A stretch of DNA of 64,000 bases from Flaccisagitta enflata. Taxonomy: Eukaryota. Below, one piece after another: positions 16,924 to 46,704 of the stretch. The stretch lies in the NCBI GenBank assembly GCA_965153355.1, contig OZ231126.1:44392001-44456000 (forward strand). Direction: 5' to 3'. The notes below the pieces were generated by a model that was given only the letters and a program-made list of their open reading frames with translations, was not told the DNA's origin and searched no databases. Each line of letters begins with the position of its first letter. Position 1 is the first letter of the stretch. A program made the translations under genes and the position numbers.

Positions 16924-17107
16924 TTTTTAGTTGCGGACACGCAACTCTATAAGAGGCTTTGTCCGTCCGTCGGTCGGTCCGTCGGTCCGTGGACACGAGT
17001 CAAAAAGTGAGGAAATGAGCGTTTTAGAACATTTTTAGTTGGGGACAGTTGTATTTCCGCCCCTGCCCACCCGTCCGCAACTGATGGCCGTGTATCCGGC
17101 CTTGTTT
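16924..17107 (+). mobile_element. Short HINE
   Basis: Termini as 6775-6932. Confidence 0.8.
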
Positions 17108-17413
17108 GCCATATATTGTCACTATCGCCTAGACCCCCCGGCCCCCACCCACATATTCCTCTTCTGTCTGTCCCGCTTCTTGTCTCCACCACCTCTTCCT
17201 TCTCACTGAAGCAAAACGCCCTCTTTGGCCTTAGTAAATGGCCAAGGCAAAGTCAACAAAGGCTGTGAATGTCCGACTAATCTTCTACCTGACGTGCGAA
17301 ACGACTCGCCGACCGACTCACCGACCGAACAACCTCTAGATTTATTAGGCGCGACTAAATCCTCTCCTCAGTATGCTTGCGCGCTCTCTTTCTCTTTCTC
17401 TTTCTCTTTCTCT

Positions 17414-17486
<73 letters not shown>

Positions 17487-17794
17487 GTCACTGACCACTA
17501 ACCACAGGATATATAAAGACAGACGGACTCTACTTTAGCCAGGATCACCAAAAATAGGAATGGAAAGAAGTCAACGGCATAGGGAAGGAGGGAGACAAAT
17601 ATGAATCGACACCGAACCAAAGTTCTGGGCAAAGTACAGTACGTTCCGAGCAAAAAGGGCATTATATGGAGGATCTACTGTACGCAACACATTAAATTCA
17701 AATATCATAATGTGTGGTTTTTCTGAAAGCCAATGATGCAAGGAATTCCGCGAACATAATTTTGATACTCTGGTTGCAAAAGGTGAGCACACAG

Positions 17795-17912
17795 AAAAAA
17801 AGTCGTGCACATGTCCAGTTTCGAACCCGTGACTTGACAGAATCACTTTTCCCAATGCAGAGAAAAGAAATTCTGAAGTCGCGCACGCTAACCATTAGGC
17901 CAACGCGACACG
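17795..17912 (-). ncRNA. tRNA-derived Pol III unit inside the left TIR
   Basis: Mirror copy: A box TGGCCTAATGG, GACT-TCA-GA, hairpin, B box GGTTCGAAAC, T7. Confidence 0.55.
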
Positions 17913-18230
17913 GGTAAATTTGTGTTAATTACAAGTCATCATAATCTAATCGGCCGCTATTTTTGACTTCCAAACTCAATCAACGGAATTTATTTTCCCT
18001 TGCTGATCCTTGCTCTGTTTTCATATCAGAATGGCTTCCTTACATCATAAAAAATGTGTTCAACGTACGAACATGAAGTAGTTTTAGTGATCATTCAATA
18101 GGTTTCAGTAGGTTTTGCTATGGACGATCGTGCTTATTAGAAATATATGATGAAGTTACTTCTTTTCAACATACTGATTATCAGAATAAGACACGAAATG
18201 AAAAAGAAAATAGATGAAAAAGCAAAGAAA

Positions 18231-19748
18231 AACAAGGCCGGATACACGGCAATCCAGTCGCGGACGGTTGAGCAGGAGCAGTAATGTGAAAACCGCTCGG
18301 AATTCAAAAATGTGACGGACGGACGGAGACCTACAGACCTACGGACCTACCGACCAACACGGCAAGGTGTAGATTCGCGTGTCCGCGACTAAAAATGAAA
18401 AGAGGTCAAAACGAATGGGCGAGCTAATAGATTAACAGACTAAGGGCAACAAATTGATGAGCTAATAAATGAGGGAAGCAGAAAAAGCAAACAAACTAAC
18501 AAAAAAGCAAACGTTGAAATAGATGAACAAGGCCGGATACACGGCCAATCCGTAGTCGCTGCTGGTGGGCAGGGGCAGCAATGCGAGTGGGCAGGGGCAG
18601 TATGTGAGTAGGCGGGGGCTGTATTGACGCCAGGCAGGAGCTGTGATGGTCAGAAATCTGTTTTTCAGTCGATTTCGCGTCATCAAAATTTTCGCGTGAC
18701 AGACATTCAGACAGACAGACAGACAGACACAGGGACACACCCTCTTATAGAGTCGCTTAGGCAGCGACTAAAAACTGCAGGAATAAAGTGAATATAAAAC
18801 ATAAAGAGAAATAGAACAAGGCCAAGTAGGCCAATAAGGTGCGCCGTGTGGATCGTCGAACCAATGCTTTACCGACCAACCGACCGATAGACTAACGGAC
18901 AGAGCCAGTTAAAGAGGTGCGTTGGCGCACCTAAAAAAACTAACAGATAAAAAAATGAACAAAAGAACGAACGAACAAACAAACCAATGAACGAACAAAC
19001 AAATGAATGGACGAACGATAGAATGATCAAGGTCATTAGACCTAATTTGCGTGCTCCGGCACATTAAAACAAGGCCAAGTATAGGCCAATAAGTGCGCCT
19101 CGCTTGATTAAGATTTTGTGAATGAACCTTTTTGATGAATAAATGAATGAATGAATGAATGAATGAATGAATGATGGAATGAATGAATATGAATGTGGTG
19201 AGGCATGAAAGGTGATAGGAATGAAGAAGTACGTCAGAATCAGCCGTTTTGCGCATTTCAAACGTTTGCGTGACCGACCAACCAACCGACCGACCAACCA
19301 ACCGACGGACATGACCTCTTATAGAAGTGCGAGGACGCACTTAAAAAGTCAGACAGACAAACGATTTAAAAAAAAAAAGACATTCAAAACGGCTTATCAC
19401 GCCTCAAAGTTTCTTCTCTACTACTCTGGGACATAAAAAAAACATTAATAAAACTGGGACATAAAAACTGGGACATAAAAAAACATTAATAAAAGCCTTC
19501 ATAAACGACTTTGTGGCAGACGGACGAACCAACTGCCTGAAGTGGTGACCGCTGTTACAGACTAACCAAATGACCAACAAGTGCTTATTGCTGCCAAAAA
19601 ACTTATATCTTAAATCATTTTGAACACCTTTTAAACGATTTTGTGACGGACAAATGGATGGATGGCCGGACGGGTGGATGGACGGACAGACCAACCAACC
19701 GACGGACAGGAAAGTGGCTTATAGAGTTGCGTAGCACGCGACTAAAAA
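18231..19748 (-). mobile_element. Cluster of five co-oriented short HINEs (18231-18395, 18526-18774, 18815-18939, 19068-19347, ~19500-19748)
   Basis: Each shows an AACAAGGCC 3' end and/or 5' hairpin plus GACN microsatellite; different subfamilies. Confidence 0.75.
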
Positions 19749-21804
19749 TGGAAGAATGATCGAAGGGAATCAAAGGGAAGGAAGAACAAAAGAAGGGAAA
19801 AATGAGAGGTTCGGTGTCGATCGGCGTCGATCATAACGGCGTCGTGTTGGTTTGATTGGAAACTAGAAATCAGCTCTTTCTCTTCTTTCTGCGCTGAAAA
19901 TCGAAATGATGTGGAGGAAGAATGAAACTCAAAGAAATCTTTTTCTCCCACATTTGTTGATTGTTCCTTCGTTTGTAGAAGGAGATGACACTTTCTGAAG
20001 TCTTTCCCCCCCCCACCTTCTCCCCCTCTTCATCCTCCTTGATCTCATGAACTTGGAAAGGCTTTAGAGGTTATGGGATTGAAGAAAGTTAGAATCGGCT
20101 ATTTTGCGAGTTTCAAACGGACAGACAGACCAACCTATCAACGGACAATCAGACATGACCTCTAGAAGTGTGAAGACATACTTAAAAATCAGAACAGCCA
20201 CAAAAATTACTTAAAAAGCTATATAAAACATGGAGTTACAATAATGTCGCGGATGGCGGGAGGGAGAGACAGGGGCCTTAAACCCCCCCCCCCCTTACAC
20301 ACACAAATACAACCGTAGCATGCGAGTTTTGATACTTTTCAACTCAACCATTTCAGACCAAATCAAAGGACGGATTGTCACACAAAGTCTATGGATTCAC
20401 AAGTCAGTGGTCAAAACTGTGACAGGAGGGATGGACTAATGGACTGTCCGACCAACCGACCAACACTAACCCATAAAATGATTATTTGAAAGTCGGGTTT
20501 TCCTTTCGGCTGAAATAAATCATTATTTTCCTACTCTGTACCTGAGATTTGTTTCTACCTCTTCCTCTGGATCATTCGCAGCCCTCGCAACGTCATTGTC
20601 TATCCATCGATAACCACATTGGTACGGTTCATGATATTCTCACACTAGTGACTTTTTTTCCCCGGCGCTCCTCATATCTTCACTGCCAGTCAAAAACCCA
20701 GGATGAAATTATCTAAAAAAAAAAATAAACAAAAAGTAAAAAAATAAAATAAAAAAAAAAACTCATTTTGATTTTTTATAAAGTTTTGAAAAAAATTTAG
20801 AATTGGAATATAATATATATTCTAATTAATAAATTGCAAATAAGTTGAAAACAGTTTTTACTGTTAAACTCTTTATTGTTAAGCATTTGAACAAAGGTGT
20901 TAACATAATATATCTAACACCTGTGCAACAATGATTGCAACAACTTGACAATCCACTATATTTTTCACATTCTGCAAAGCTGAATTTACATATTTGATCG
21001 GTTTTAGCCATTTTCATAATAATACTAGCTAAAACATGACAGAAAGAGGATTTTTAATTCTCTTTGGGAGTTCCAAGTTTAGTTTATTTATCACAACTGC
21101 GAGATGGTTGTGTCCAGAATGTCAACTTTTGGATTACTTTGACACAAATATTTGAGCCCTTTGCTTTTGAAATTGAACTTAAAATCCATGGGATTATTAA
21201 AATTGAACTTAAAATTCATAGGATTATCAAACTAGAGCTCAAGAGCTAATCAGAGGCACAATCCACATGTTTCTATCCATTTTCAAAAAGATTTCAGAGT
21301 GTTATAAAGATGATGATGTTTTTTTGGTAATTTTGCAGTGCCAAGCAGGGTAGATGTTTTCACTGATTTAGCTATAACTGGGCTTTGTTTTAATCAATAA
21401 CGATGTTATTCATGAGCGAAATGAAGCATTTCTTAAGTACTAACTGATGGTGAAAACCAAATTTCTTGTTTTTTTCCCATTTTGATTTGACAATTTTAGG
21501 AAGTTGTTGCAATAATTCTTGCACAGCTGTTATATCATATACATTTTAATGGTCTAAGAAATAAAAAAAGGGCGAAGTATTTAAGCCTGAATATTAAAAA
21601 AAAAACATTTTTTTGCAAAAGCTTAACCAAGATGAATATTTATTTTAGAACCCTTGTATAGAAAGCTTATGGTTTTTTTTAAACTTTAAAGATTGAGATA
21701 TTTCAAGTCTGGGAACCTGACCGTTACACGCTGCAGCGCAGTTTTGGTCCGACGGTGCTGCTGCAGTCTGAGGCAACATCGTCTGAGGTCGCATCAATGG
21801 ATTC

Positions 21805-22053
21805 AACAAGGCCCGATACGGCGATACACGGCTACCCCAGTCGCGAGCGGGTGGGCAGGGGCTGTATTTGAGATCACTTGATAATTTGGGCAGGAGCAGT
21901 GAGGCCAAAGACCAGAAACCATAAAAAGTAAAGGATGACGGACGGTCGGACGGATGGCGGGATGGACAGACAGACGGATGGACGGACGAACCAACTGACC
22001 GACAAGGCGGGGTGTGAATTCCGCTGAATTGTGTCGCATAGCACGCGACTGAA
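21805..22053 (-). mobile_element. Short HINE
   Basis: AACAAGGCC...GCACGCGACT. Confidence 0.75.
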
Positions 22054-22511
22054 TATGCAGATGTTCTTGGTGGGAGACTTAATTGAGATCAGAATATACC
22101 GCTAGGTGGCGCTTCTTGACCAATACCGTTTTAAGATATTGATAAAAGAGCATCGACCGCGCTTGGACCGTTCCAAATTGTTTACACTTTCGTATTGATC
22201 GATGGTCATTCCTGGTGTAGCGAGCGCAGAGCGCAGATTTAAAATCCGAATGCAATGCATTGCTTATGACTTTTTTCCTCACGGCGATAACCATTTCTTC
22301 ATCATTTTCATCTTCAGTCTGGCAGACAGACAGAACGCTTTTTAAGATCGGATTTTAGGCGGATTTGGCGTCTCTTTGCACATTCATTCGGTTTCTGAGG
22401 ATTCTTTTTATTTCCACCGTTGCGATATCCCCGGATCTCCATAGGAAGGTGTGTCGGTCGTTCGGGGATTCTTTTTTTGGCCAGTCTTTCGCCGTGGCCC
22501 AACATCTTATG

Positions 22512-22645
22512 TTTTTAGTCGCGGACACGCGACTCTACACCTTGCTGTGTCGGTCGGTCCATCGGTCCGTCGGTCTGTCACATTTGTGAATTGCGATCGG
22601 GTTTCGTATTGCTGCTCCTGCCCAACTGGATTGCCGGTGTGTCCG
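22512..22645 (+). mobile_element. Short HINE (degenerate 3' end)
   Basis: TTTTAGTCGCGGACACGCGACT start. Confidence 0.7.
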
Positions 22646-22708
22646 TCGGGAATGCATCTGTATAGGAAGGTCTGTCAGTTGGTCGGCTGTTCCGTTGCTT
22701 GTCGGGTA

Positions 22709-23335
22709 GACGCTTTTTTTTGTAAGAACACTGTTTTTATAAACATCAGCCTAAGATTTGGCCAAATAACAAGAACATCTTAAGAACATGCTAGGCCTAA
22801 GATGAGAAAATAAGAATATAATTTTCTTAAAAACTAAAAGTTAGATGAACAAGGCCGGATACACGGCTACCGAAGTTGCGTACGGGTGGGCAGGGGCCAT
22901 ATTTGAGGTCGCCAGACCATTTGGGCAGGAGCAGTGAGGTCAAAGAAATAAAATCATAAAAAAAAAGTAAAGTGTGACGGACCAACCGACCAACCGACCA
23001 ACCGACCGACCGACCAACGGACAAAGCGGGTTGTAGAGTCGCGTGCGAGCGACTAAAAACCCTTAAAAGATTATCATTATAATTATGATTTCTAATATGA
23101 TAATTCATTATTCATTAAATACTAATCTTAAACTGTTTTTTAAGTAGAAAAAAATGTTTTTTGAACTTTCTTAAAAAAATAAATTATTATGACAATGTAA
23201 CTATAAAGTTATAAAAAAATTATCTGATTCAAAAATAAAAACATGCTAAGAATGCTTGAGCCTCAAAATAGAGCTAAAAATAAGAACGCTGAGCCTCACT
23301 TCAAAAATCCATGTTCTCATAAAATGAAAAGCGTG
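22709..23335. mobile_element. Related TAAGAAC-repeat MITE containing a HINE
   Basis: ACGCTTTT..GTAAGAACA / TGTTCTCATAAAATGAAAAGCGT; similar to 36755-37167. Confidence 0.65.
22848..23059 (-). mobile_element. Short HINE nested in MITE
   Basis: Full termini. Confidence 0.8.
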
Positions 23336-23624
23336 CGCTTTTCTTTTCATCAGTTCATAATGAGACCGCTGCAAGAGCTTAAATGAAGGAGCTACCCACA
23401 ACAGTCAGGAAAATTTTTAGTCGCAACAATGTTTGATTTTTATGTTGAAGAAAAAATAGAAAAACTTTAAGATTGATTTTCCCGTCTGCTTTTGGCTTTG
23501 GCTTTCTTATTTCCGCGAAGCGCCCGTGGTAACTGTTTTAATTCTCTCAAAAATGAGTAAGACGTCAATATTTTGGAGGGAAAAAGAGGGCCTATAACGC
23601 GCTGATTAGAATCATCTCCAATGC

Positions 23625-23964
23625 ATAAGAACACTGTTTATAAGAACATCAGCCTCAGACTTGGCAAATAAAAAAAAATTATCATAAAAACATGCTGAGC
23701 CCTAGATTAAAATTTTTTTTTTAAAAACTCAATGAAATAAGATGAAATCAATATCGTATTATTGATTTTCAAAAAAATCTTTTATTGTTTTAAAATATCA
23801 ATTTTATTTTCCTTTCTTTATTTTTTTTCTGACAGTAGCTTAAAATAGCAAACTAAAAGAATTATACATTGTAATTGCATAATTATTTAAAAAGATTTTA
23901 ATTTTAAAAAATGACATAATTATAATGCTTCAGAAATCCATGTTCTTATAATATGAAAAGCGTG
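23625..23964. mobile_element. Left-truncated copy of the TAAGAAC MITE
   Basis: Aligns to 22722-23335; right end AAAAGCGTG|ta. Confidence 0.6.
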
Positions 23965-24196
23965 TACTGCTCCTGCCCACTCGTCCGAGACTGAGTGAAG
24001 AGACGAGAAAACGTGAGAAAACCCTCAAAGCAGACACAGAATGATGGGGAGCAAACGCATCGGCGTAATGGAGAGATAGTCAGCAGACTTGGCGGTGTAT
24101 AAAACATGCAGACTACGAAGCCAATGAGATTTGACCAGTGTCAACGGCTCTCTAAATGCATCACGCGAGATATATAGGCAATATAAGCAACAAAAA

Positions 24197-24351
24197 AACA
24201 AGGCCGGATACACGGCCATCAGTTGCGGACGGGTGGGCAGGAGCGGATATGCGCGTTTTCACACTTCTCGACTCGTGTCCACGGACCGACTGACCAACCA
24301 ACCAACGGACGGACAAAGCCTCTTATAGAGTTGCGTGTCCGCAACTAAAAA
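24197..24351 (-). mobile_element. Short HINE
   Basis: Full termini. Confidence 0.8.
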
Positions 24352-24586
24352 GAATCATTAGTAGACGGTCGAGTCTCCTCTGGGCTCCAAAACCAGACTG
24401 ACCGATAGCCATCCCTTCCTCCGAAACGCAGACAGAACGGACTGGCAGCTGTCGCTTTACTGTTGTGAAAATCCTTTGCTTTACTATCATGAAAATCCGC
24501 AGCGGCCCCATACGCGTAATATTAGGAGAGAAAAGAGCATCGCGGTTGTCGCACAGTCTCTGCACTGAGGGGGAATTTATACGTCC

Positions 24587-24735
24587 TTTTTTAGTCGCGT
24601 GCTACGCGACTTTACACCCACCTTGGTCCATCCGTCAGTTGGTCGGTCGGTCCCCATTTTACTTTTGGTGATATTCTCCATCACTGCTCCTGCCCACCCG
24701 CACGCCACTAGGGTAGCCGTGTATCCGGCCTTGTT
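24587..24735 (+). mobile_element. Short HINE
   Basis: TAGTCGCGTGCTACGCGACT ... GCCGTGTATCCGGCCTTGTT. Confidence 0.8.
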
Positions 24736-25218
24736 ATGTACAGAGGCGGCCGTTGAGACTTGAGTCTCATTTCCATATAAAGATGAACGAATGTTTGAGA
24801 ATGTTCGTGAACGAACATAACTGTTCGCGAATGTACAAGAATGTTCGTGAACATTTAATGGAAAAAAGTCGAATTACGTAATTCGACTTTTTGAAACGTA
24901 GGGGAGAAATAAAGTTTTCCATTTTCGGTTTGGGGCAATTTTAGGAAGTTGTGCCATTTTGGGGCTGGGAGTATACATTTTTTGATATTCAAAACTAAGA
25001 AAGAGCTAATTTTTCATTTTCAAATGGCGCCAACCAGAAGTCTCTACGATTAATATTTTAGGAGTTATGAATTTTTGAATCTTTTTTTATTTTTTCGTAT
25101 TTTCGCAAAAATCGATATTTTTCATTGATCTCATTTTTTGGGGTCTATGTAACATGAGAAAAGTGTTAAGATGTTACACAAAGTGACTCCAAGTTTTTTG
25201 ACGCTAGCTTGCGCATTT

Positions 25219-25273
<55 letters not shown>

Positions 25274-25321
25274 AAGAGATAGAGAGAGTGGGAAGAGATA
25301 GAGAGAGTGGGAAGAGAGAGA

Positions 25322-25407
<86 letters not shown>

Positions 25408-25409
25408 CA

Positions 25410-25489
<80 letters not shown>

Positions 25490-26107
25490 CAAAGACAGAG
25501 GAAGACTGAGAGAAAAAAAAGACAACTGTAGATTGAATAACAAAAACACACAGGCAATCAATCAAACAGCATGAGATGCACTCACAGAGGATCATGCACT
25601 GAAAAAAGAAACTCCCATTTACGCCTTTTTTCCGGATGGCGATTAGCCGCCTTTATTGGTAAACATTCGTGAACATCCGTGAATACTCGTTAACATTTTT
25701 GAACATTCATGAAAGTTCGTAAATGTCCATGCATGTCTGGGAATGTCCTCGAACATTCGGTGATGTTCGTGAATGTTTGTGAAAGTTCATGAACAGCGCG
25801 GCAAGTGAAAATCACAGGTCATTTTCTTAATTAATACTTTTTGTTTTAAAATGCATCTAACCTTTAACGGTATGAGATATGCATAAAATAAAAACATAAG
25901 ATGTTACTATGATAGACAATTCACTCGCAAAAGTTCATAACAGTCTTGACAGAAGGTTGGTATCACGTTCCTTCGCGAATTCGCGGCTCGAAAATCGTGT
26001 GGATGACGCATCTTGTTGCCTATTCGGAATTGTATTTCTTCTTTTTTTTCCTTTGTTTCTTCCAATCATTCACTCTACCTTCTTTTCTTTCTTTCTCTGT
26101 CTCTGTC

Positions 26108-26220
26108 TTTTTAGACACCCTGTCGGTCGGTAGGAAATATTTATGAATTGCGAGCGGTTTTCGCATCACGGCTCCTGCCCAACTGTCCGCGACTGTCTCA
26201 CCATGTATCCGGCCTTGTTT
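26108..26220 (+). mobile_element. Short HINE, 5' hairpin deleted
   Basis: 3' subTIR and hairpin present. Confidence 0.65.
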
Positions 26221-26767
26221 CTTTCTTTCTTTCTTACGTCCATCAACCGGTTTCTTCCTTTCTTTCGTTCTTTCGTTCGTTCGTTCGTTCGTTTGTGCGT
26301 TCATTCGTTTGTTTGTTTGTTTGTTCGTTCTTTCTTTTGTGCGTTTTCGTTCTTTTTTGTAAGTTAATTATTTTTGTTTTCTTTTCAGTGCAGTGTTTGC
26401 TTCTTTCCTTCAATTGTTCCTCCTTTGGTCTACTTGTTAGTTCGTATGTTGATTTGTTCATCTATTTGTTAGGTCGTTCATCGGTTCAATTATTAATCAA
26501 TTAATATGTTTGTCTTTTTAATATCTTTTTCTCTTGACACTTAATGTTTTTTTGATTAATGTTTGTTTGTTTAATGTATGTTTGTTTGTTTTTTCTTAAA
26601 TTTGTTCGTTTTATTTTGATGTAATGAACCTATTCCTACATCATGAGCTGATTGAATCAATGAAGTTGGCGATGCACATGACAAAGAAAAAACATTTTGA
26701 ACGACTGCGCTTGGATGGTAAAATGAGCGCTGGACTAGAAGATATCCAAGTATCTTCAATTATCACC

Positions 26768-26885
26768 CGTGTCGCGTTAGCCTAATGGTTAGCGTGCGCG
26801 ACTTCAAAATCTCTTCTCTCTGCATAGGGAAAAGTGATTCTGTCAAGTCACGGGTTCGAAACTGGACATGTGCACGACTTTTTTT
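26768..26885 (+). ncRNA. tRNA-derived Pol III unit inside the right TIR (not a canonical tRNA)
   Basis: A box TAGCCTAATGG 26778-26788, GACT-TCA-AA, long hairpin, B box GGTTCGAAAC 26853-26862, T7 run 26879-26885; D, T and acceptor stems imperfect. Confidence 0.55.
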
Positions 26886-28061
26886 CTGTGTGCTCACCTT
26901 TTGCAACCAGAGTATCAAAATTATGTTCGCGGAATTCCTTGCATCATTGGCTTTCAGAAAAACCACACATTGTGATATTTGAATTTAATGTGTTACGTAC
27001 AGTAGATCCTCCATATAATGCCCTTTTTGCTCGGAACGTACTGTAGCATGCATGCAACTCCCAAGACAGCCATCTGGCCCAACTACATGGGCAGAGACAC
27101 ATTGGGGCTGCAGTCAAATAGTGTCAGCACTGACATTAAGGGATTTTTCCACCAGGTGCGAAATAGGTACAACCAATCGATCGGAAATATCATTGAAAAT
27201 GAAACGAAACCGCTGCTAACAAAATCAAAAGACTCAATCCAGTTATCATTTATATAGCAGCAAAAGAAATTACCATATGTGAATCATAATGAAGTTTTCC
27301 ATTCAGGGATTTGTTTTATCATTTAAAAACGTCATATATATCTCACAAATCAAAAGAGAAATTCTTGGCTTAGCGAATAACCATAACAGCAGTATGCAAA
27401 CTAGCCCTAACTTCCCAATGCAGGATATCACGAATAACGTTGGGATACCCAATTTGGCAATCGCAATTTGTCAACGCAGATGAAGCAAGTAGGAAAGGAA
27501 GGTCTAAGGAGTAAAAAAAAGAGAAAAAAAATCTTGGTATCGGTAATAACTTTTGTCGACTAAGCCGATTATAACCTTTAAGCTGGTGACTGGAAGGAAG
27601 CACACGCGGCCTTTTTCTCTCATTCACTCTCTGTCGAGAAAGAACGCAACGCGAAATCGCAGAACCGCCTTTTTCACGCCAGCGGCTCCGCTATCAACCC
27701 GGTTTTCACGTGGTATCAAACGGGCGATCATGTGACATCCAACCGGCGATCACATGAACGCGGACCGACAGACCGACACACTCACGTGACCCTCAAATGT
27801 GAGCGAGCAAATCCCGGGAATTTACTTTGGCGCGTTCAAGCAGGGCCCAGAGTGAGAAAGAAGAAGAAGAGAGAGAAAGAGAGTGAGGAACTAGGAACCT
27901 TTCGTCTCCCCTCCATCTCACTCTGTGCCTCTCCTTTTCGGTAAGAGAGAAGCAAGGAAGTCCCCAGAGAGAGAGAGAGAGAGAGAGAGAGACGGTGTGG
28001 CGTCTTCGCGCGTGACCGGTTTTCATGGCGGTGCGCCTGGCTTTCTCTCCTTCTCACAGGC

Positions 28062-30191: not shown

Positions 30192-30236
30192 AACCGCTTG
30201 CGCAGTGGTTCTTGGGGGCAAAATAAGCTGTATGTA

Positions 30237-30500
30237 CAGTACTATGTGTGCAATAAGGGTCTCAGATGGAAGGTCGTTTTCTGCTTCACCATTCTAATGA
30301 AGTAGCTGCAATTGTAGTTTTTTTGAAACCTGATGGGCTAGAGCTTTGTATGAATATAGTTTTATACCTCTAGCAGTAACTGTTGACCAAAATGAAAAAG
30401 AGTCCAATACCTCTAGAGATTTGAACCTACAGATCCTTCAATCTATCACAACTTCAATTTGTCTTATGCGCTGATCGCATAGAATTGGCAAACTGTGTCT
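30237..30500. mobile_element. Solo, highly diverged relative of the tRNA-bearing TIR
   Basis: ta|CAGTAC start; ungapped similarity to 17637-17830; B-box-like GGTTCAAATC on minus strand at the same 184-bp offset. Confidence 0.5.
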
Positions 30501-30523
30501 GAAATTTATCAAAAAGAAAAAAA

Positions 30524-30662
30524 AACAAGGCCGGATACACGGCAATCCAGTCGCGGAAGTTTGGGCAGGAGCAGTAATGCGAAAACCGCTCGGAATTCAA
30601 AAATGTGACGGACCTACCGACCGACACGGCAAGGTGTAGAGTCGCGTGTCCGCGACTAAAAA
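30524..30662 (-). mobile_element. Short HINE abutting an exon donor
   Basis: Full termini; similar to 18231-18395. Confidence 0.8.
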
Positions 30663-42115: not shown

Positions 42116-43566
42116 CTACGCGAAAGAGAAAAGGAGAGGGCGAAAAAAAAAAAGGTTTTAACTACCTCTTTAAAGTCAAGTTGTTAATTCACTATCTCGG
42201 TCGGTCCAACCTTCCGTTTTTGGCCTACATAGCCCATTTTATAATCAAAGTCCTGGTCCTGATTCTGGCTTAAAGATACTTGCTCCGCTTTAACTTTAAG
42301 GGGATCTGAATAATTGCCAAATCTAGCCTTGCTATTGCACTAAGTTCTGTACGCGGGTCACGTTAGGACAAAAAAACTTACGCCGGTACTTTTGACCTAC
42401 ATCAAAGGTAGAAACTGGTACACACAGCGCAATCTATAGTAGAAAAACTGGACATAATCCCTCGGGAAAAAACCCCGATTCATTGATTAAATAAGTTTTA
42501 ATGGGGGATTCCTTCCGGGAATTCCTGGGGAATAAACTTTGATGTTTCTCAGTAAAGCCTAATTCACTTTAAAGAATAATTGTAACAGAGGATTCCCCGG
42601 GATATTCCCGGAAATTAAATTTTGAAAATCCCAGTTCACTTAAAAAATAGTTGTAACAGGGGATTTCCCCGGGATTTCCCCAGGATTTCCCCGGGATATT
42701 TCTCAAAAAAGCCCAGTTAACTTTAAAAAGTGATTGCAAAGAGGGTTCCCCAAGGAATTCTTCAGGGGATTAATATCACTACAGATTGCGCTGTGGTACA
42801 GTTGCTTATATTGAGCAAGAAAATATATGGTTTTACCTGCGTCCTAGCTAATCCAAAGCCTCTTTCTTCCCTTGAAGTTAACTACTTCGCCCAAATTCAA
42901 ATATGGAAAAAAAGGATTATGACATTCTATTTGATACAGTTCTAAATATGAAAAATGATACCTAAAATAGGAGGTAGGACGCCAAATCTTCAGGAAAGCT
43001 TTAGGGGTGGATTGAATACAACTTGTGTAAAATTTGGTAACCCTGCTTCCAGATTTAAAGGAATTATTAAAATAAACCCATAAATTTCTAATCAAAGATA
43101 AAATAAATTATGTCAATTTGATGCCTCCAAAACGTTTAACCTACTGACTTCATGAGCAAAAAAATGTCCTTAGATTCATCAGGATGCAGGCAAAACCATA
43201 TATAAATGTTATTTACACATACTAAGAGACACTTTTATACAATAGCTGTCGTCCCCGGGTCCTGGCTTCTATTTTTGACCAGATATGGTATGCTCTCGGA
43301 ACTCAGTGTATTGGTTCTTCATAGCATTGATTGATTGATTGATTGATTGATAGATTGATTCATTCATAAAAGATTAGTACAAAAAAATATAACAAAATTG
43401 ATCTGTTCAGTCGAAAAGAAATATCGGTCAGCTGGAATCAGCAATACATATTTTCAAAATCATAAAAAAGATAATTTATCTATTGTAGTCGAAGTTGTAG
43501 TGACATACCGGCCGACCAGACGATGGACCAACGACTCAGACAAATACAAAATCCTTTGTCGCTAAC

Positions 43567-45205
43567 CTGTAAGTCATGTGGGCGTTAAAGTGATGCATCA
43601 TGAGAGCAACGATGCTTGAGCATTCATCAGCGCAGGCGTGACAAGCGAAGCCTTTAATCCCCGGCGCCAAAGCGTGAGACGCCAGCGGATTCACGGGTGT
43701 GGAGCTCATCGTCGACGGAGCCGCCGCGCCACTTCCGGATGACGTATTCCCCGATGCGGCCGCGATACCAGCCACAGATGCCCCCGACGAGGATCTGATT
43801 GATGTCGACGGCGGGTTTGAAAAGGCGGAAGCGCCTCCTCCAATCCCGGTTCCTGAAGGTACGATGGAGGGAGTTGGCTTGGGCTTTAATATGGACACCA
43901 TCTTTGTGTTGGTATTCAATGAGGTGGATTTGTAAGGATGGCCGGAATGATGTTGCGCCTGTTGCATATGCATCATCGGCGCTGGCGAAGGCATGCAGGC
44001 TCTCGGCGCGAATTTGCCGAGATTATTTTTGGTGAAGGCAGACAGAGCTTCCAATGGAGGTGGAAGGCGGAACTTGCCGTCTGGGGCAGCTGTTGGAGCA
44101 TGTCGGGAAGGGTGTTGCTGTAGGACGGGCGGAGAAGCTGTGGAGGTGGAAGGTGACACGGAGTAAGGCGGCGGCGGGGGGGAGGAAGAGGAGGTTGCAG
44201 ATAGAGCTCGACGGAGTAATCCAGAGTGATGTTGCTGCGGTGGCGGCAAATGTGCATCATCCAGGGTATATTGAGGAGAAGAAGCGGAAGTCTGTTCATC
44301 AATGGTGATGAGCATCTCGCCAGAATCATCCTCCAAAGCAACGACGGAATTTGGAAGAATACGATTGTCGACGGCAGGTTGCAAAGGTCGTAACGGGGGA
44401 GGAGGAGGAGGAGACGGAGATGGGGAAGTGGCGTCACCTGCTTGAGGGGGAAAAATAGCAAGAGGACGAGACGGGTGTTGAACCGATGCAGTTTCCACAT
44501 CTTCTCCCACAAACAGCTTTGACGCAGCAGCAGCCGCAGCTGATATCTTTTCGTCGATGAGAGCACGAGGTTGAGGAGGAGCATGATGAGGAGGTTGAGC
44601 AAGTTGATTAGGTTGCATTTTTAGAAAAGATGATGCGGTATTTGGAGGTTTTGATTTGCCAGCGTTAGTTTTCAGCATCGGCACGAGGTATGGCGTCTCC
44701 GATGATGAAGCTGTTGACGGCATTACCGATGTTGGTTTGGTGGCGCTGTAAGCGGGTAATGAAGGATATCTACGAGGAATTTCAACGGCACAAAATTGAT
44801 CGAAAGCACTCGCGAAGGATCCCGGCGAGGACCGCTTTGTAACCCCGGAAGAAGCAGTAGAAGACGTGGAGGCAGAGGCGGAAACAGAAGGATGGGGAGT
44901 AGCAGAAGGAGAAGAAGAGGCTGATGAGGAGGAAGAGGATGATGCCGAAGATGCCTTGCCGGTGGAAAAGGCGGATTGAGGAGCAACGTTGGAGGCACTT
45001 TTGTCATTGATATTGTTGTTGGTAGTGGTCGCGGTATTGTTGTTACTATTGGTATTGTTGTTACTATTGGTTTTGTTGATATTGGAGTTGTTGTTCCTCA
45101 GCGCAGGCGGTGGAAGTAAATCCTCAATTGAAATAAATTCCGGTTCAACGACTTTTGCCGTTGACGGGGCACTGGAGGAAGAAGTGGAGGCAGAAGTAGC
45201 ACTTA

Positions 45206-45236
<31 letters not shown>

Positions 45237-46304
45237 GACGTCAGTGTCGTTTCCAAAGAAGTGATCATCATCCTCGATGGATGCCATGACGGTGAATTCC
45301 TTCGTCACTGGCGTTGTGATAACACGTGGAACAGCTGGTCGACGCACTAATGATGGATAAGTAGCAGACGATGCAACGGGCAGAGGGGGAGGATGGGGAG
45401 AAATAGAAGCAGTAGGCAAACGAGAAGTTGATGTTGGTGCGCTAGACGATGCGGAGGAAGATTTTGGCGTCGAGGGACTAACGGAGGCGTTGCGGATGTT
45501 GGTAGATCGCAATGAACGCCGCGTGGGTGTCAAAGGAACGGAAGCGGAAGATGATTCGTCTTCAGCGTCTTTTCCAGGCGACGAAAAATCTTCAGTATAA
45601 GATGACCGCAAACTCTGCAAATCCCGCTCCTGATTTCGATTGTCGGTCATGTCATCGGTGTCGTTGTCATTATTACACGCTACTGCCGAAGAAAAATAAT
45701 TGCCATCATTCTCGTGGGAATTGTTGATTAAAGAGGCACCATGAATTTCGCCGGTTTTGCTATCAACGAGTTGATTTTCATGATCGAAACCGAGTTCTAG
45801 CGAAGAATGGGTTGAGGGAGACTGGAATCTCGTGGTGATGATCTGTTGCTGTTTCTTCTGTCGCTCGTCGTCCTTCGTCGTCGTCGTCTTCTTTATCGTC
45901 GTCGTTTTGTCATGTCCTCTAGTGGAGAGGCCACGACTTTGTTCCATTGGATCTGAACTATTACTTTGAACCCCCGTTTCCTCGCTCGATTTCCCCCTTT
46001 CTTCGTCGTCGTGATCGTCGCCGTCGTCGTCGTCGTTATCCGAGTTTTCTTCTCGTTTTCTATGAAGACTCTTCTTCTTTGAAATGATGTTCACTCGACG
46101 TTTTTCGCCGGTTACTACTCTCTCAGCGACAACAACAACATTGGACAACGACGTCGATAAAGACGTCGTCGACATCGTCGTCGTCGATCTTCCGCTGCCG
46201 CTGCGCAAGCTGCTCCTCCGGTCGATCGAACCGGCAGCTGTCGTCGTCGTCTTCGTCTTCGTTTCTTGTTCTATTTCTTCCTTTCTAATCCTATGCCTCT
46301 CCAT
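43567..46304 (-). CDS. Large coding exon of a C2H2 zinc-finger protein (long Ser/Pro/Thr/Asn/Asp-rich disordered region, C-terminal finger FACHACADECSSIVALMMHHFNAH)
   Basis: 922-codon open frame with non-microsatellite codon diversity; ATG in gcaATGg context; C-x2-C-x12-H-x4-H motif; donor AG|GTTAGC after 43567 (phase 2) just after the finger. True start uncertain. Confidence 0.85.
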
Positions 46305-46704
46305 TGCGAAACGTGACTGAGGCTGCTGCTGCTGATGTCGTGGACAAAATTCTCGAGGCTACAGCTGCAGCCGCCGCGTCTGCAATTAATCTTGAAAACA
46401 TGAGAATGAAAGGATTTGTTGCTCTCCATCTAACTGCTGCTGCTGCAGCTGGGTAAGATGATGGTGGCGACGACGTGGAGGAGGACGATGGCGGTTCCAA
46501 CAAAGTGACGACAGGATGCCCCGTTAAGCCGTTTTTCTTCGTAGTTATCGTCCGTTTCGACGTCGCCGGGATCCTGTCGTCGTTCTCGACGTCGTCACCG
46601 TTGCAGCTGTTATCGTTGTCGTCGTTGACGTCGTCGTCTTTGTTGTCGTCGATGTTATTAAGCGAGATCGAGTGAGAGATCGAACTCGCAGTCGGTTGCA
46701 ATGG

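What the first reader, a model, noticed from the sequence alone, without database searches (positions are those of the whole stretch)
17635..27045. 9.4-kb TA-flanked element whose terminal inverted repeats each carry an outward-facing tRNA-like Pol III unit
Seen: two 279-bp inverted copies (7 mismatches, ~97.5%) end outward in CAGT and are each flanked by TA. Each holds an A box, B box and T7 terminator. Known: CAGT ends with a TA duplication typify Tc1/mariner-pogo DNA transposons, whereas internal tRNA promoters typify SINEs. Inference: this is one DNA element that has built a Pol III gene into its TIRs (possible small-RNA expression, TFIIIC insulator or anti-silencing role). I do not know of a described family with this layout.
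Basis: partly seen in the sequence, partly recalled or inferred. Interest (0 to 1): 0.8.

Follow-up and report, generated by a model that had tools for sequence, protein, structure and literature searches.

The report
Inverted tRNA-like transposon ends, 9.4 kb apart
Two near-identical inverted copies of a small mobile-element end, each carrying a tRNA-like promoter cassette and ending in the CAGT/TA signature of cut-and-paste transposons, bracket 9 kb of non-coding repeat-rich DNA; whether they move together as one element is plausible but not shown.

Summary
Arms 17635-17915 and 26765-27045 are 281 nt and differ at 7 positions. Each ends outward in CAGT next to TA and carries an A-box-like word, a B-box-like word and a T7 run. 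tRNA finders and Rfam do not call a tRNA.

New findings:
- The inverted homology runs about 140-155 nt further inward at roughly 63% identity ("U").
- A third, old copy (66% identical) lies at 30235-30500.
- Eight other copies were recovered as spurious ORFs from public metagenome assemblies.
- 8 of 9 copies that reach the outer end read ...ACTG+TA; flanks that could be compared were unrelated, one exception.
- All 5 young copies that cross the inner boundary continue into U, upstream of the predicted Pol III start.
- The 8.85-kb interior has no Pfam domain in six frames.

The copied unit is therefore not a plain Pol III SINE transcript. My best reading (0.45) is that these are DNA-type (Tc1/mariner-pogo-like) termini of one non-autonomous composite element. 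The main rival (0.3) is two separate SINE-like chimeras, as in HaSE2. No second pair, empty site or transposase could be examined. Novelty: a new variant of a known kind.

The parts
17635..17636 (.). TA dinucleotide outside the left terminus (candidate target duplication, or last two bases of the module)
17637..17915 (-). Left arm: 279-nt conserved terminal module. It starts outward with CAGT, and the tRNA-like cassette is at its inner end. It is closest to the family consensus (1 private change seen, 1 undetermined).
17892..17902 (-). A-box-like word of the left arm
   Evidence: read; consensus recalled
17817..17827 (-). B-box-like word of the left arm
   Evidence: read; consensus recalled
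17795..17801 (-). T7 run (A7 on the + strand), a Pol III terminator-like run directly after the tRNA-like part
17916..18054 (-). Left subterminal region U(L): homologous to the right subterminal region at about 63%. At 17920-17937 only depth about 280 was laid from run X1, the same as single-copy parts.
18055..26609 (.). Interior: no Pfam domain in six frames. It is dense in other repeats, with 8 heads of an abundant (ACGG)n-bearing family, and holds long (AG)n/(AC)n runs at 25224-25487.
26610..26764 (+). Right subterminal region U(R): shared with other copies (P0003, and contigs of runs X1-X3 that bridge 26589-26905)
26765..27043 (+). Right arm: 279-nt conserved terminal module ending outward in ACTG. 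It carries 5 private changes, 4 of them within positions 43-62.
26778..26788 (+). A-box-like word of the right arm
   Evidence: consensus recalled
26853..26863 (+). B-box-like word of the right arm
   Evidence: consensus recalled
26879..26885 (+). T7 run of the right arm
27044..27045 (.). TA dinucleotide outside the right terminus
30235..30500 (-). Third, old copy of the same superfamily (164 of 247 aligned positions identical). It keeps the B-box word (9 of 11), a T5 run and the terminal GTACTG+TA, and its head abuts a copy of the abundant family.

Best explanation
The two arms are copies of the conserved terminal module of a dispersed, non-coding mobile-element family. The module is a chimera. 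Its inner part is a tRNA-derived Pol III-type cassette: about 6 nt of leader, an A-box word, a hairpin insertion, a B-box word and a T7 run. Its outer part is a tail of about 160 nt that ends ...ACTG next to TA. I infer that the family moves as DNA, cut at TA|CAGT by a Tc1/mariner-pogo-type transposase supplied in trans, and not as a Pol III transcript. Here two such ends face outward and together bound one non-autonomous composite element of 9.4 kb whose interior is non-coding, repeat-dense DNA. Shown: the anatomy, the sharp TA-adjoined end in other copies, co-copying of sequence upstream of the Pol III start, and the lack of coding capacity. Inferred: the transposase mechanism, that the two ends belong to one element, and any role of the Pol III cassette.
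For: (1) The end is sharp. 8 of 9 copies that reach the outer end read ACTG+TA: the three window copies plus P0002, P0004, P0005, P0007 and P0010. P0009 is the exception. The three window flanks do not align above shuffles. The terminal GTACTG+TA survives in lineages only 46% (aa) or 66% (nt) identical. (2) The copied unit is not the Pol III transcript. All 5 young copies that cross the inner boundary (L, R, P0001, P0002, P0003) continue into homologous sequence upstream of the predicted start. T7, T4 and T5 runs lie in the sense strand. There is no simple-repeat or poly(A) tail. No TSD of 7 nt or more flanks either copy. (3) The subterminal sequences fall into at least three deeply diverged types ({R, P0003}, {P0001, P0002}, {L}), while the 281-nt module stays within a few percent. 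Within one type (R against P0003) both parts are equally diverged. This is what is expected if only the terminal module is needed in cis. (4) In run X1, summed depth over the module (6344 at 17714, 9 contigs) is about twice that over the right subterminal region (3374 at 26720, 14 contigs), as expected if each element has two ends and one right subterminus (the tool warns that depth is not a copy number). (5) With tens of young copies, a chance pair within 9.4 kb is expected 0.001-0.3 times per genome (for assumed genome sizes). (6) The interior holds 8 of the 18 heads of an abundant family in 14% of the window (binomial P=0.0017), so it has a history of its own.
Against: There is no transposase or any other Pfam domain in six frames of the interior. 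No second inverted pair, empty site or autonomous partner could be examined, because no genome is held. The left subterminal region looks unique in run X1, whereas the right one is shared, so this exact element is not a repeated unit. The step from 97.5% to about 63% identity falls exactly at the predicted Pol III start, and the B-box word is conserved in the old copy (9 of 11). Both are what a SINE predicts. Depth falls gradually upstream of the right arm (3374, about 1300, 718), which resembles 5' truncation. There is no inner/outer direct-repeat structure in the arm (best 11 of 16 against shuffles of 11-14). R has 5 private changes and L has 1 (not significant, P=0.22). 9.4 kb is very large for this superfamily (recalled).
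Confidence: 0.45

Rival explanations
1. The arms are two separate insertions of a SINE-like or LINE-dependent retroposon whose 3' region derives from the end of a Tc1/mariner element, including its TA. HaSE2 of Helicoverpa is such a chimera. The two copies merely lie head-to-head, and the 9.4 kb between them never moved as a unit.
For: The layout matches HaSE2: a 286-bp consensus with a 70-bp tRNA-related head, a central domain and a 154-bp 3' region 98% identical to a mariner-like element, with no poly(A) or simple-repeat tail (PMC3272025, sections 13 and 19 read). The high-identity region starts 6 nt before the tRNA-like +1. The B-box word is conserved in the old copy. Depth falls stepwise upstream of the right arm, like 5' truncation. 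L and R carry different subterminal types and different numbers of private changes. The interior has no coding capacity. A third copy 3.2 kb from R hints at regional clustering.
Against: Sequence upstream of the Pol III start is copied in 5 of 5 young copies. T7, T4 and T5 runs would stop Pol III. No TSD of 7 nt or more was found. A chance pair of young copies within 9.4 kb is expected well under once per genome. A retroposon has no reason to end exactly at a transposon terminus plus TA in every lineage.
Confidence: 0.3
2. The arms are two old, independently placed copies of different sublineages. Their homologous 281 nt were homogenised by gene conversion, between each other or from cDNA or other copies, so the near-identity and its sharp inner edge are conversion-tract artefacts and not functional TIRs.
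For: Identity steps from 97.5% to about 63% exactly where good homology would have ended. 5 of the 7 mismatches lie in the 62 nt nearest that edge (P=0.007 for the chosen cut; 4 within 20 nt, permutation P=0.029). The subterminal regions are as diverged as old lineages.
Against: The module is within a few percent of P0001-P0005 as well, so homogeneity is family-wide and not special to this pair. L is nearly identical to the consensus state. Two copies would still have to lie 9 kb apart by chance.
Confidence: 0.1
3. The 281-nt unit is a functional, dispersed Pol III gene family (a tRNA-like small RNA plus a downstream element) kept similar by selection. It is not a mobile element.
For: The B-box word and a T run directly after the tRNA-like part are conserved in the 66%-identical old copy. 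The first 113 nt fold into a cloverleaf-like shape.
Against: Within one lineage (R against P0003) the unit is no better conserved than the upstream flank. The flanks become unrelated exactly after ACTG+TA in three window copies. No Rfam family matches.
Confidence: 0.05

Closest known systems
HaSE2, tRNA-derived SINE of Helicoverpa armigera with a mariner-derived 3' region (PMC3272025; abstract and sections 13, 14, 19 read)
   Same: The size is similar (286 against 281 bp). The order is the same: a tRNA-related head, then a 3' part of about 150-160 bp of DNA-transposon type. There is no poly(A) or simple-repeat tail.
   Different: HaSE2 copies were reported with TSDs (5 of 7) and are treated as retroposed SINEs. 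Here no TSD was found, homologous sequence upstream of the head is co-copied, a T7 run follows the head, and two copies form an outward-facing inverted pair. Similarity of this tail to a resident mariner or Tc1 element could not be tested.
MER6/MER6A MITEs: mariner termini with a V-SINE-derived interior (PMC6887750; abstract and section 2.4 read)
   Same: It is a chimera of Tc1/mariner ends and SINE-derived sequence that spreads as a DNA element.
   Different: In MER6 the SINE body and tail lie in the interior and the tRNA-related head is excluded. Here the tRNA-like head with its promoter words sits inside each terminal repeat.
Non-autonomous Tc1/mariner-pogo elements with long TIRs, and composite mobilisation of DNA lying between two transposon ends (the latter sketched in the review PMC6947457, passages read; the former recalled)
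   Same: TA next to CAGT-type termini, long inverted terminal repeats, no coding capacity, and two outward-facing ends bracketing unrelated DNA.
   Different: No transposase partner is known. There is no inner/outer binding-site repeat in the arm. The span is 9.4 kb, and a Pol III-type cassette lies in each arm.
Canonical tRNA-derived SINEs
   Same: A- and B-box words near one end, a length of about 280 bp, and a sharp 3' end.
   Different: tRNA models do not recognise it. Copies do not start at the Pol III start. There are internal T runs and no TSDs.

Membership tests
Tc1/mariner-pogo (ITm) non-autonomous DNA transposon | TA target duplication on both sides of the element | tested here: met
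   TA lies at 17635-36 and 27044-45. TA also follows ACTG in 8 of 9 copies, so it cannot be told apart from TA being the last two bases of the module.
Tc1/mariner-pogo (ITm) non-autonomous DNA transposon | Terminal inverted repeats with CAGT-type tips (tip consensus recalled) | tested here: met
   The arms are 281 nt at 97.5% identity, with tips cagt and actg.
Tc1/mariner-pogo (ITm) non-autonomous DNA transposon | A DD(E/D) transposase in the element, or an autonomous partner with the same termini | tested here: not met
   Six-frame Pfam of 17916-26767 with stops read as X found 0 real families. A partner elsewhere in the genome is not testable because no genome is held.
Tc1/mariner-pogo (ITm) non-autonomous DNA transposon | Other copies occur as inverted pairs, and empty sites with a single TA exist | not testable with these tools
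   Only short contigs and ORF translations of other copies could be seen.
tRNA-derived SINE | Head recognisable as tRNA-derived, with internal A and B boxes | tested here: inconclusive
   Box-like words are present. ARAGORN at default or with introns finds 0, and gives only inconsistent calls at relaxed score. Rfam has no tRNA hit at E<=10.
tRNA-derived SINE | Copies begin at the Pol III start site | tested here: not met
   5 of 5 young copies crossing the boundary continue into homologous upstream sequence.
tRNA-derived SINE | Target-site duplications around single copies | tested here: not met
   No exact repeat of 7 nt or more links the 3' flank and the 700 nt upstream of either copy.
tRNA-derived SINE | Sense strand free of Pol III terminators before the 3' end (recalled criterion) | tested here: not met
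   T7 lies at unit positions 115-121, T4 at 134-137 and T5 near 259-263.
HaSE2-like chimeric SINE | 3' region near-identical to a resident mariner-like element | not testable with these tools
   No transposon library or genome of the organism is at hand.
MITE | Short (under about 800 bp, recalled), with TIRs and a TSD | tested here: not met
   The span is 9411 bp.

The most novel reading that the evidence does not exclude
This is a cut-and-paste DNA transposon family whose long terminal repeats each embed a working Pol III (TFIIIC-binding) tRNA-like gene. The B-box word and terminator-like T run are kept across deeply diverged lineages because the cassette serves the element, for example as a chromatin boundary, as anti-silencing, or as a source of a small RNA of about 115 nt. 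A pair of such ends can carry 9 kb of host DNA.
Probability: 0.2. Interest if true: 0.75.

Novelty: new variant of a known kind. Interest (0 to 1): 0.5.

Why it matters
If the pair is one element, it would show that SINE-type Pol III cassettes can become fixed parts of DNA-transposon termini. It would also show that two such ends can bracket, and perhaps move, kilobases of host DNA in a marine animal genome. That links two transposon classes usually treated apart. It would also give a testable case for TFIIIC/Pol III sites acting for a transposon's benefit. If the copies are separate, it is a second example, outside insects, of the rare HaSE2-type chimera. It is also a caution that inverted SINE-like pairs can mimic TIR elements.

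Tried and rejected
- **Whole-genome search:** no genome is held.
- **Earlier notes of this scan:** nothing by sequence, place or words.
- **Pattern scans for other copies:** I ran two scans of metagenome contigs, one of genome contigs and one of viral contigs. They gave 0 hits or only chance matches of 19-22 nt.
- **Laying contigs of 4 runs:** the tables were swamped by the abundant interior families. No joint 17634-to-27046, or around a single arm, is among the 15 joints listed, and 3214 were not shown, so this says nothing either way. At 17714 all laid contigs differ from both window arms. I first read that as a private shared variant, but P0001 appears to carry the window's state by my reading of its codon, so I dropped the idea.
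- **Contigs X1 record 1 and X2 record 9:** they stop matching at 17915 and 17913. I first took them as proof of a solitary 281-nt unit. They may instead be copies with a diverged subterminal type, so they are not counted.
- **Third ORF query (minus strand):** no candidates.
- **P0008 (2012 aa, low-complexity repeat protein):** dropped as spurious.
- **5S rRNA origin of the subterminal region:** no Rfam hit at E<=10.
- **Inner/outer direct repeats in the arm:** none above shuffles.
- **Homology of the three window outer flanks:** not above shuffles.
- **The 940-aa ORF at 43539-46358:** no Pfam family, so it was not used to place the organism.
- **Literature:** four full-text searches listed no paper describing a Pol III or tRNA-like cassette inside both TIRs of a DNA transposon. 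Two searches failed on term syntax. Supplements of PMC3272025 and PMC6887750, which show which part of the mariner element is shared, could not be seen.
Full report
**Observation.** The window holds two inverted copies, 17635-17915 and 26765-27045. They are 281 nt long, 98% complementary and 8849 nt apart. blastn gives 97.5% identity, and every other window hit is 21 nt or shorter. The seven mismatches are at unit positions 15, 43, 47, 52, 62, 208 and 231.

Each arm carries an A-box-like word (26778-88 and 17892-902), a B-box-like word (26853-63 and 17817-27) and a T7 run (26879-85 and 17795-801). The box consensus is recalled, not taken from a call.

No tool calls a tRNA:
- ARAGORN finds none in the window, and none with introns allowed. 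At relaxed scores it gives only inconsistent calls.
- Rfam finds nothing at gathering score. At E<=10 it finds no tRNA around either arm.

The first 113 nt do fold into a cloverleaf-like shape with a long extra hairpin.

**What lies inside.** No open frame in 17000-27600 exceeds 147 aa. Six-frame translation of 17916-26767, with stops read as X, matches no Pfam family; the single row is DUF2737 at E=0.78. So the interior holds no transposase or reverse transcriptase.

The interior is dense in other repeats. It holds 8 of the window's 18 heads of an abundant (ACGG)n-bearing family in 14% of the sequence (binomial P=0.0017).

**Other copies.** No genome is held for this window. Pattern scans of the public contig collections gave only chance matches (checked).

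*Sequencing runs.* Runs holding the stretch are one coded organism and marine metagenomes. I laid the contigs of X1-X4, which come from two studies.
- The module is multi-copy: at 17714 there are 9 contigs in X1 with summed depth 6344, against about 280-310 over parts that look single-copy.
- The tool warns that summed depth is not a copy number, so "tens of copies" is a rough figure.
- One X4 contig starts matching exactly at 17635, after 82 unlike letters.
- Contigs of X1, X2 and X3 bridge 26589-26905 (or to about 26799) at about 87% identity, so some paralogues share the right inner flank.
- Depth falls upstream of the right arm: 3374 at 26720, about 1300 at 26645-52 and 718 at 26550.

*Copies found as proteins.* The unit is open in two frames, so I searched its spurious ORFs as proteins. 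That returned eight other copies from ENA assemblies: P0001-P0005 and P0007, P0009, P0010 (sequences). P0008, an unrelated low-complexity protein, was dropped.

*A third window copy.* An old copy lies at 30235-30500 on the minus strand. Its local alignment scores 45 against shuffles of 13.2+-1.6, nhmmer gives E=5e-7, and 164 of 247 aligned positions are identical.

**The outer end.** Nine copies reach it: three in the window and six from ENA. Eight read ...ACTG followed by TA; P0009 is the exception.

The three window flanks do not align above shuffles. By eye the ENA flanks differ from one another. One oddity remains: the left copy and P0007 share 5 of 12 residues in register just past the junction.

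The terminal GTACTG+TA is intact even in the old copy and in P0007, which is 46% identical at the amino-acid level.

**The inner end.** All three ENA copies that cross the boundary (P0001, P0002, P0003) continue into sequence homologous to the window's inner flanks. The two window flanks are themselves homologous at about 63% over roughly 110-130 nt: score 20 against 11.2+-1.7, with 0 of 300 shuffles reaching it, and one nhmmer alignment runs from 18054 to 17636.

This subterminal region, U, falls into at least three deeply diverged types: {R, P0003}, {P0001, P0002} and {L}. The 281-nt module differs by only a few percent among all of these copies. Within one type (R against P0003, 94 of 115 residues identical) U and the module are equally diverged.

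Where R and L differ, P0001 and P0003 carry the L state. So R has five private changes, four of them within 20 nt (permutation P=0.029), and L has one.

**Reading.** A plain Pol III SINE fits poorly, for four reasons:
- Sequence upstream of the predicted start is copied along with the module.
- T7, T4 and T5 runs lie in the sense strand.
- There is no simple-repeat tail.
- Neither copy has a target duplication of 7 nt or more.

A DNA-type end explains several things at once: the sharp tip beside TA in all lineages, strong conservation of the terminal module against freely diverging subterminal sequence, and the roughly 2:1 depth of module to right subterminus (with the caveat above). It also explains why two of only tens of young copies sit 9.4 kb apart, facing outward. 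By chance that is expected 0.001-0.3 times per genome under the assumed sizes.

Several points count against one discrete element:
- The left subterminus looks unique.
- The arm has no inner/outer direct-repeat structure.
- No transposase is present.
- The identity step falls exactly at the Pol III start.
- The B-box word is conserved in the old copy (9 of 11).
- The upstream depth gradient is what SINE logic predicts.

I put one composite non-autonomous DNA element at 0.45, two separate SINE-like chimeras at 0.3, gene conversion of old copies at 0.1, and a functional Pol III gene family at 0.05.

**Comparison with what is in print.**
- HaSE2 of Helicoverpa is a 286-bp tRNA-derived SINE whose 154-bp 3' region is 98% identical to a mariner-like element and which lacks a poly(A) tail (PMC3272025; abstract and sections 13, 14, 19 read).
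- MER6 is a mariner-ended MITE with a V-SINE body but no tRNA head (PMC6887750; abstract and section 2.4 read).

Chimeras of the two transposon classes are therefore known. Four full-text searches listed no paper with a Pol III cassette inside both terminal repeats. The supplements of both papers were not available and may bear on which part of the mariner element is shared.

**Verdict.** This is a new variant of a known kind, of moderate interest. A genome-wide tally of pairs, a search for empty sites and a search for a matching transposase would settle it.

Noticed in passing
window 18208-18350, 22840-23060, 24185-24352, 26123-26232, 30502-30613 and 13 further heads: This is an abundant SINE-like family: an A-rich lead, a conserved head, an (ACGG/ACCG)n microsatellite and a short conserved 3' block. 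Summed contig depth reaches about 6 million in run X1 against about 300 for single-copy parts. There are 18 heads in the window, 8 of them inside the 8.85-kb interior.
   Followed up: partly
window 30235-30500 (minus strand): An old third copy of the tRNA-like/CAGT-TA module, 3.2 kb from the right arm. It keeps the B-box word, a T5 run and the terminal GTACTG+TA. Its head abuts a copy of the abundant family.
   Followed up: yes
window 17598-17634 and protein P0007: Just past the ACTG+TA junction, the left copy's flank and the flank of the diverged ENA copy P0007 share 5 of 12 residues in register. The third copy's flank holds a similar short word. This may be a target preference or residual homology.
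   Followed up: partly
window 26807-26826 (unit positions 43-62 of the right arm): There are four private substitutions within 20 nt of the right arm, inside the hairpin insertion of the tRNA-like part. The same hairpin in the left arm gives a weak bantam-like Rfam match (E=0.12, far below gathering).
   Followed up: partly
window 43539-46358 (minus strand): A 940-aa open frame, partly low-complexity, with no Pfam family. It may be a large exon of a lineage-specific gene.
   Followed up: partly
window 25224-25487 and 17384-17486: Long compound microsatellites: (AG)n running into (AGAC)n and (AC)n inside the element, and (CT)n just outside the left arm. These give the many spurious inverted-repeat rows.
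   Followed up: no
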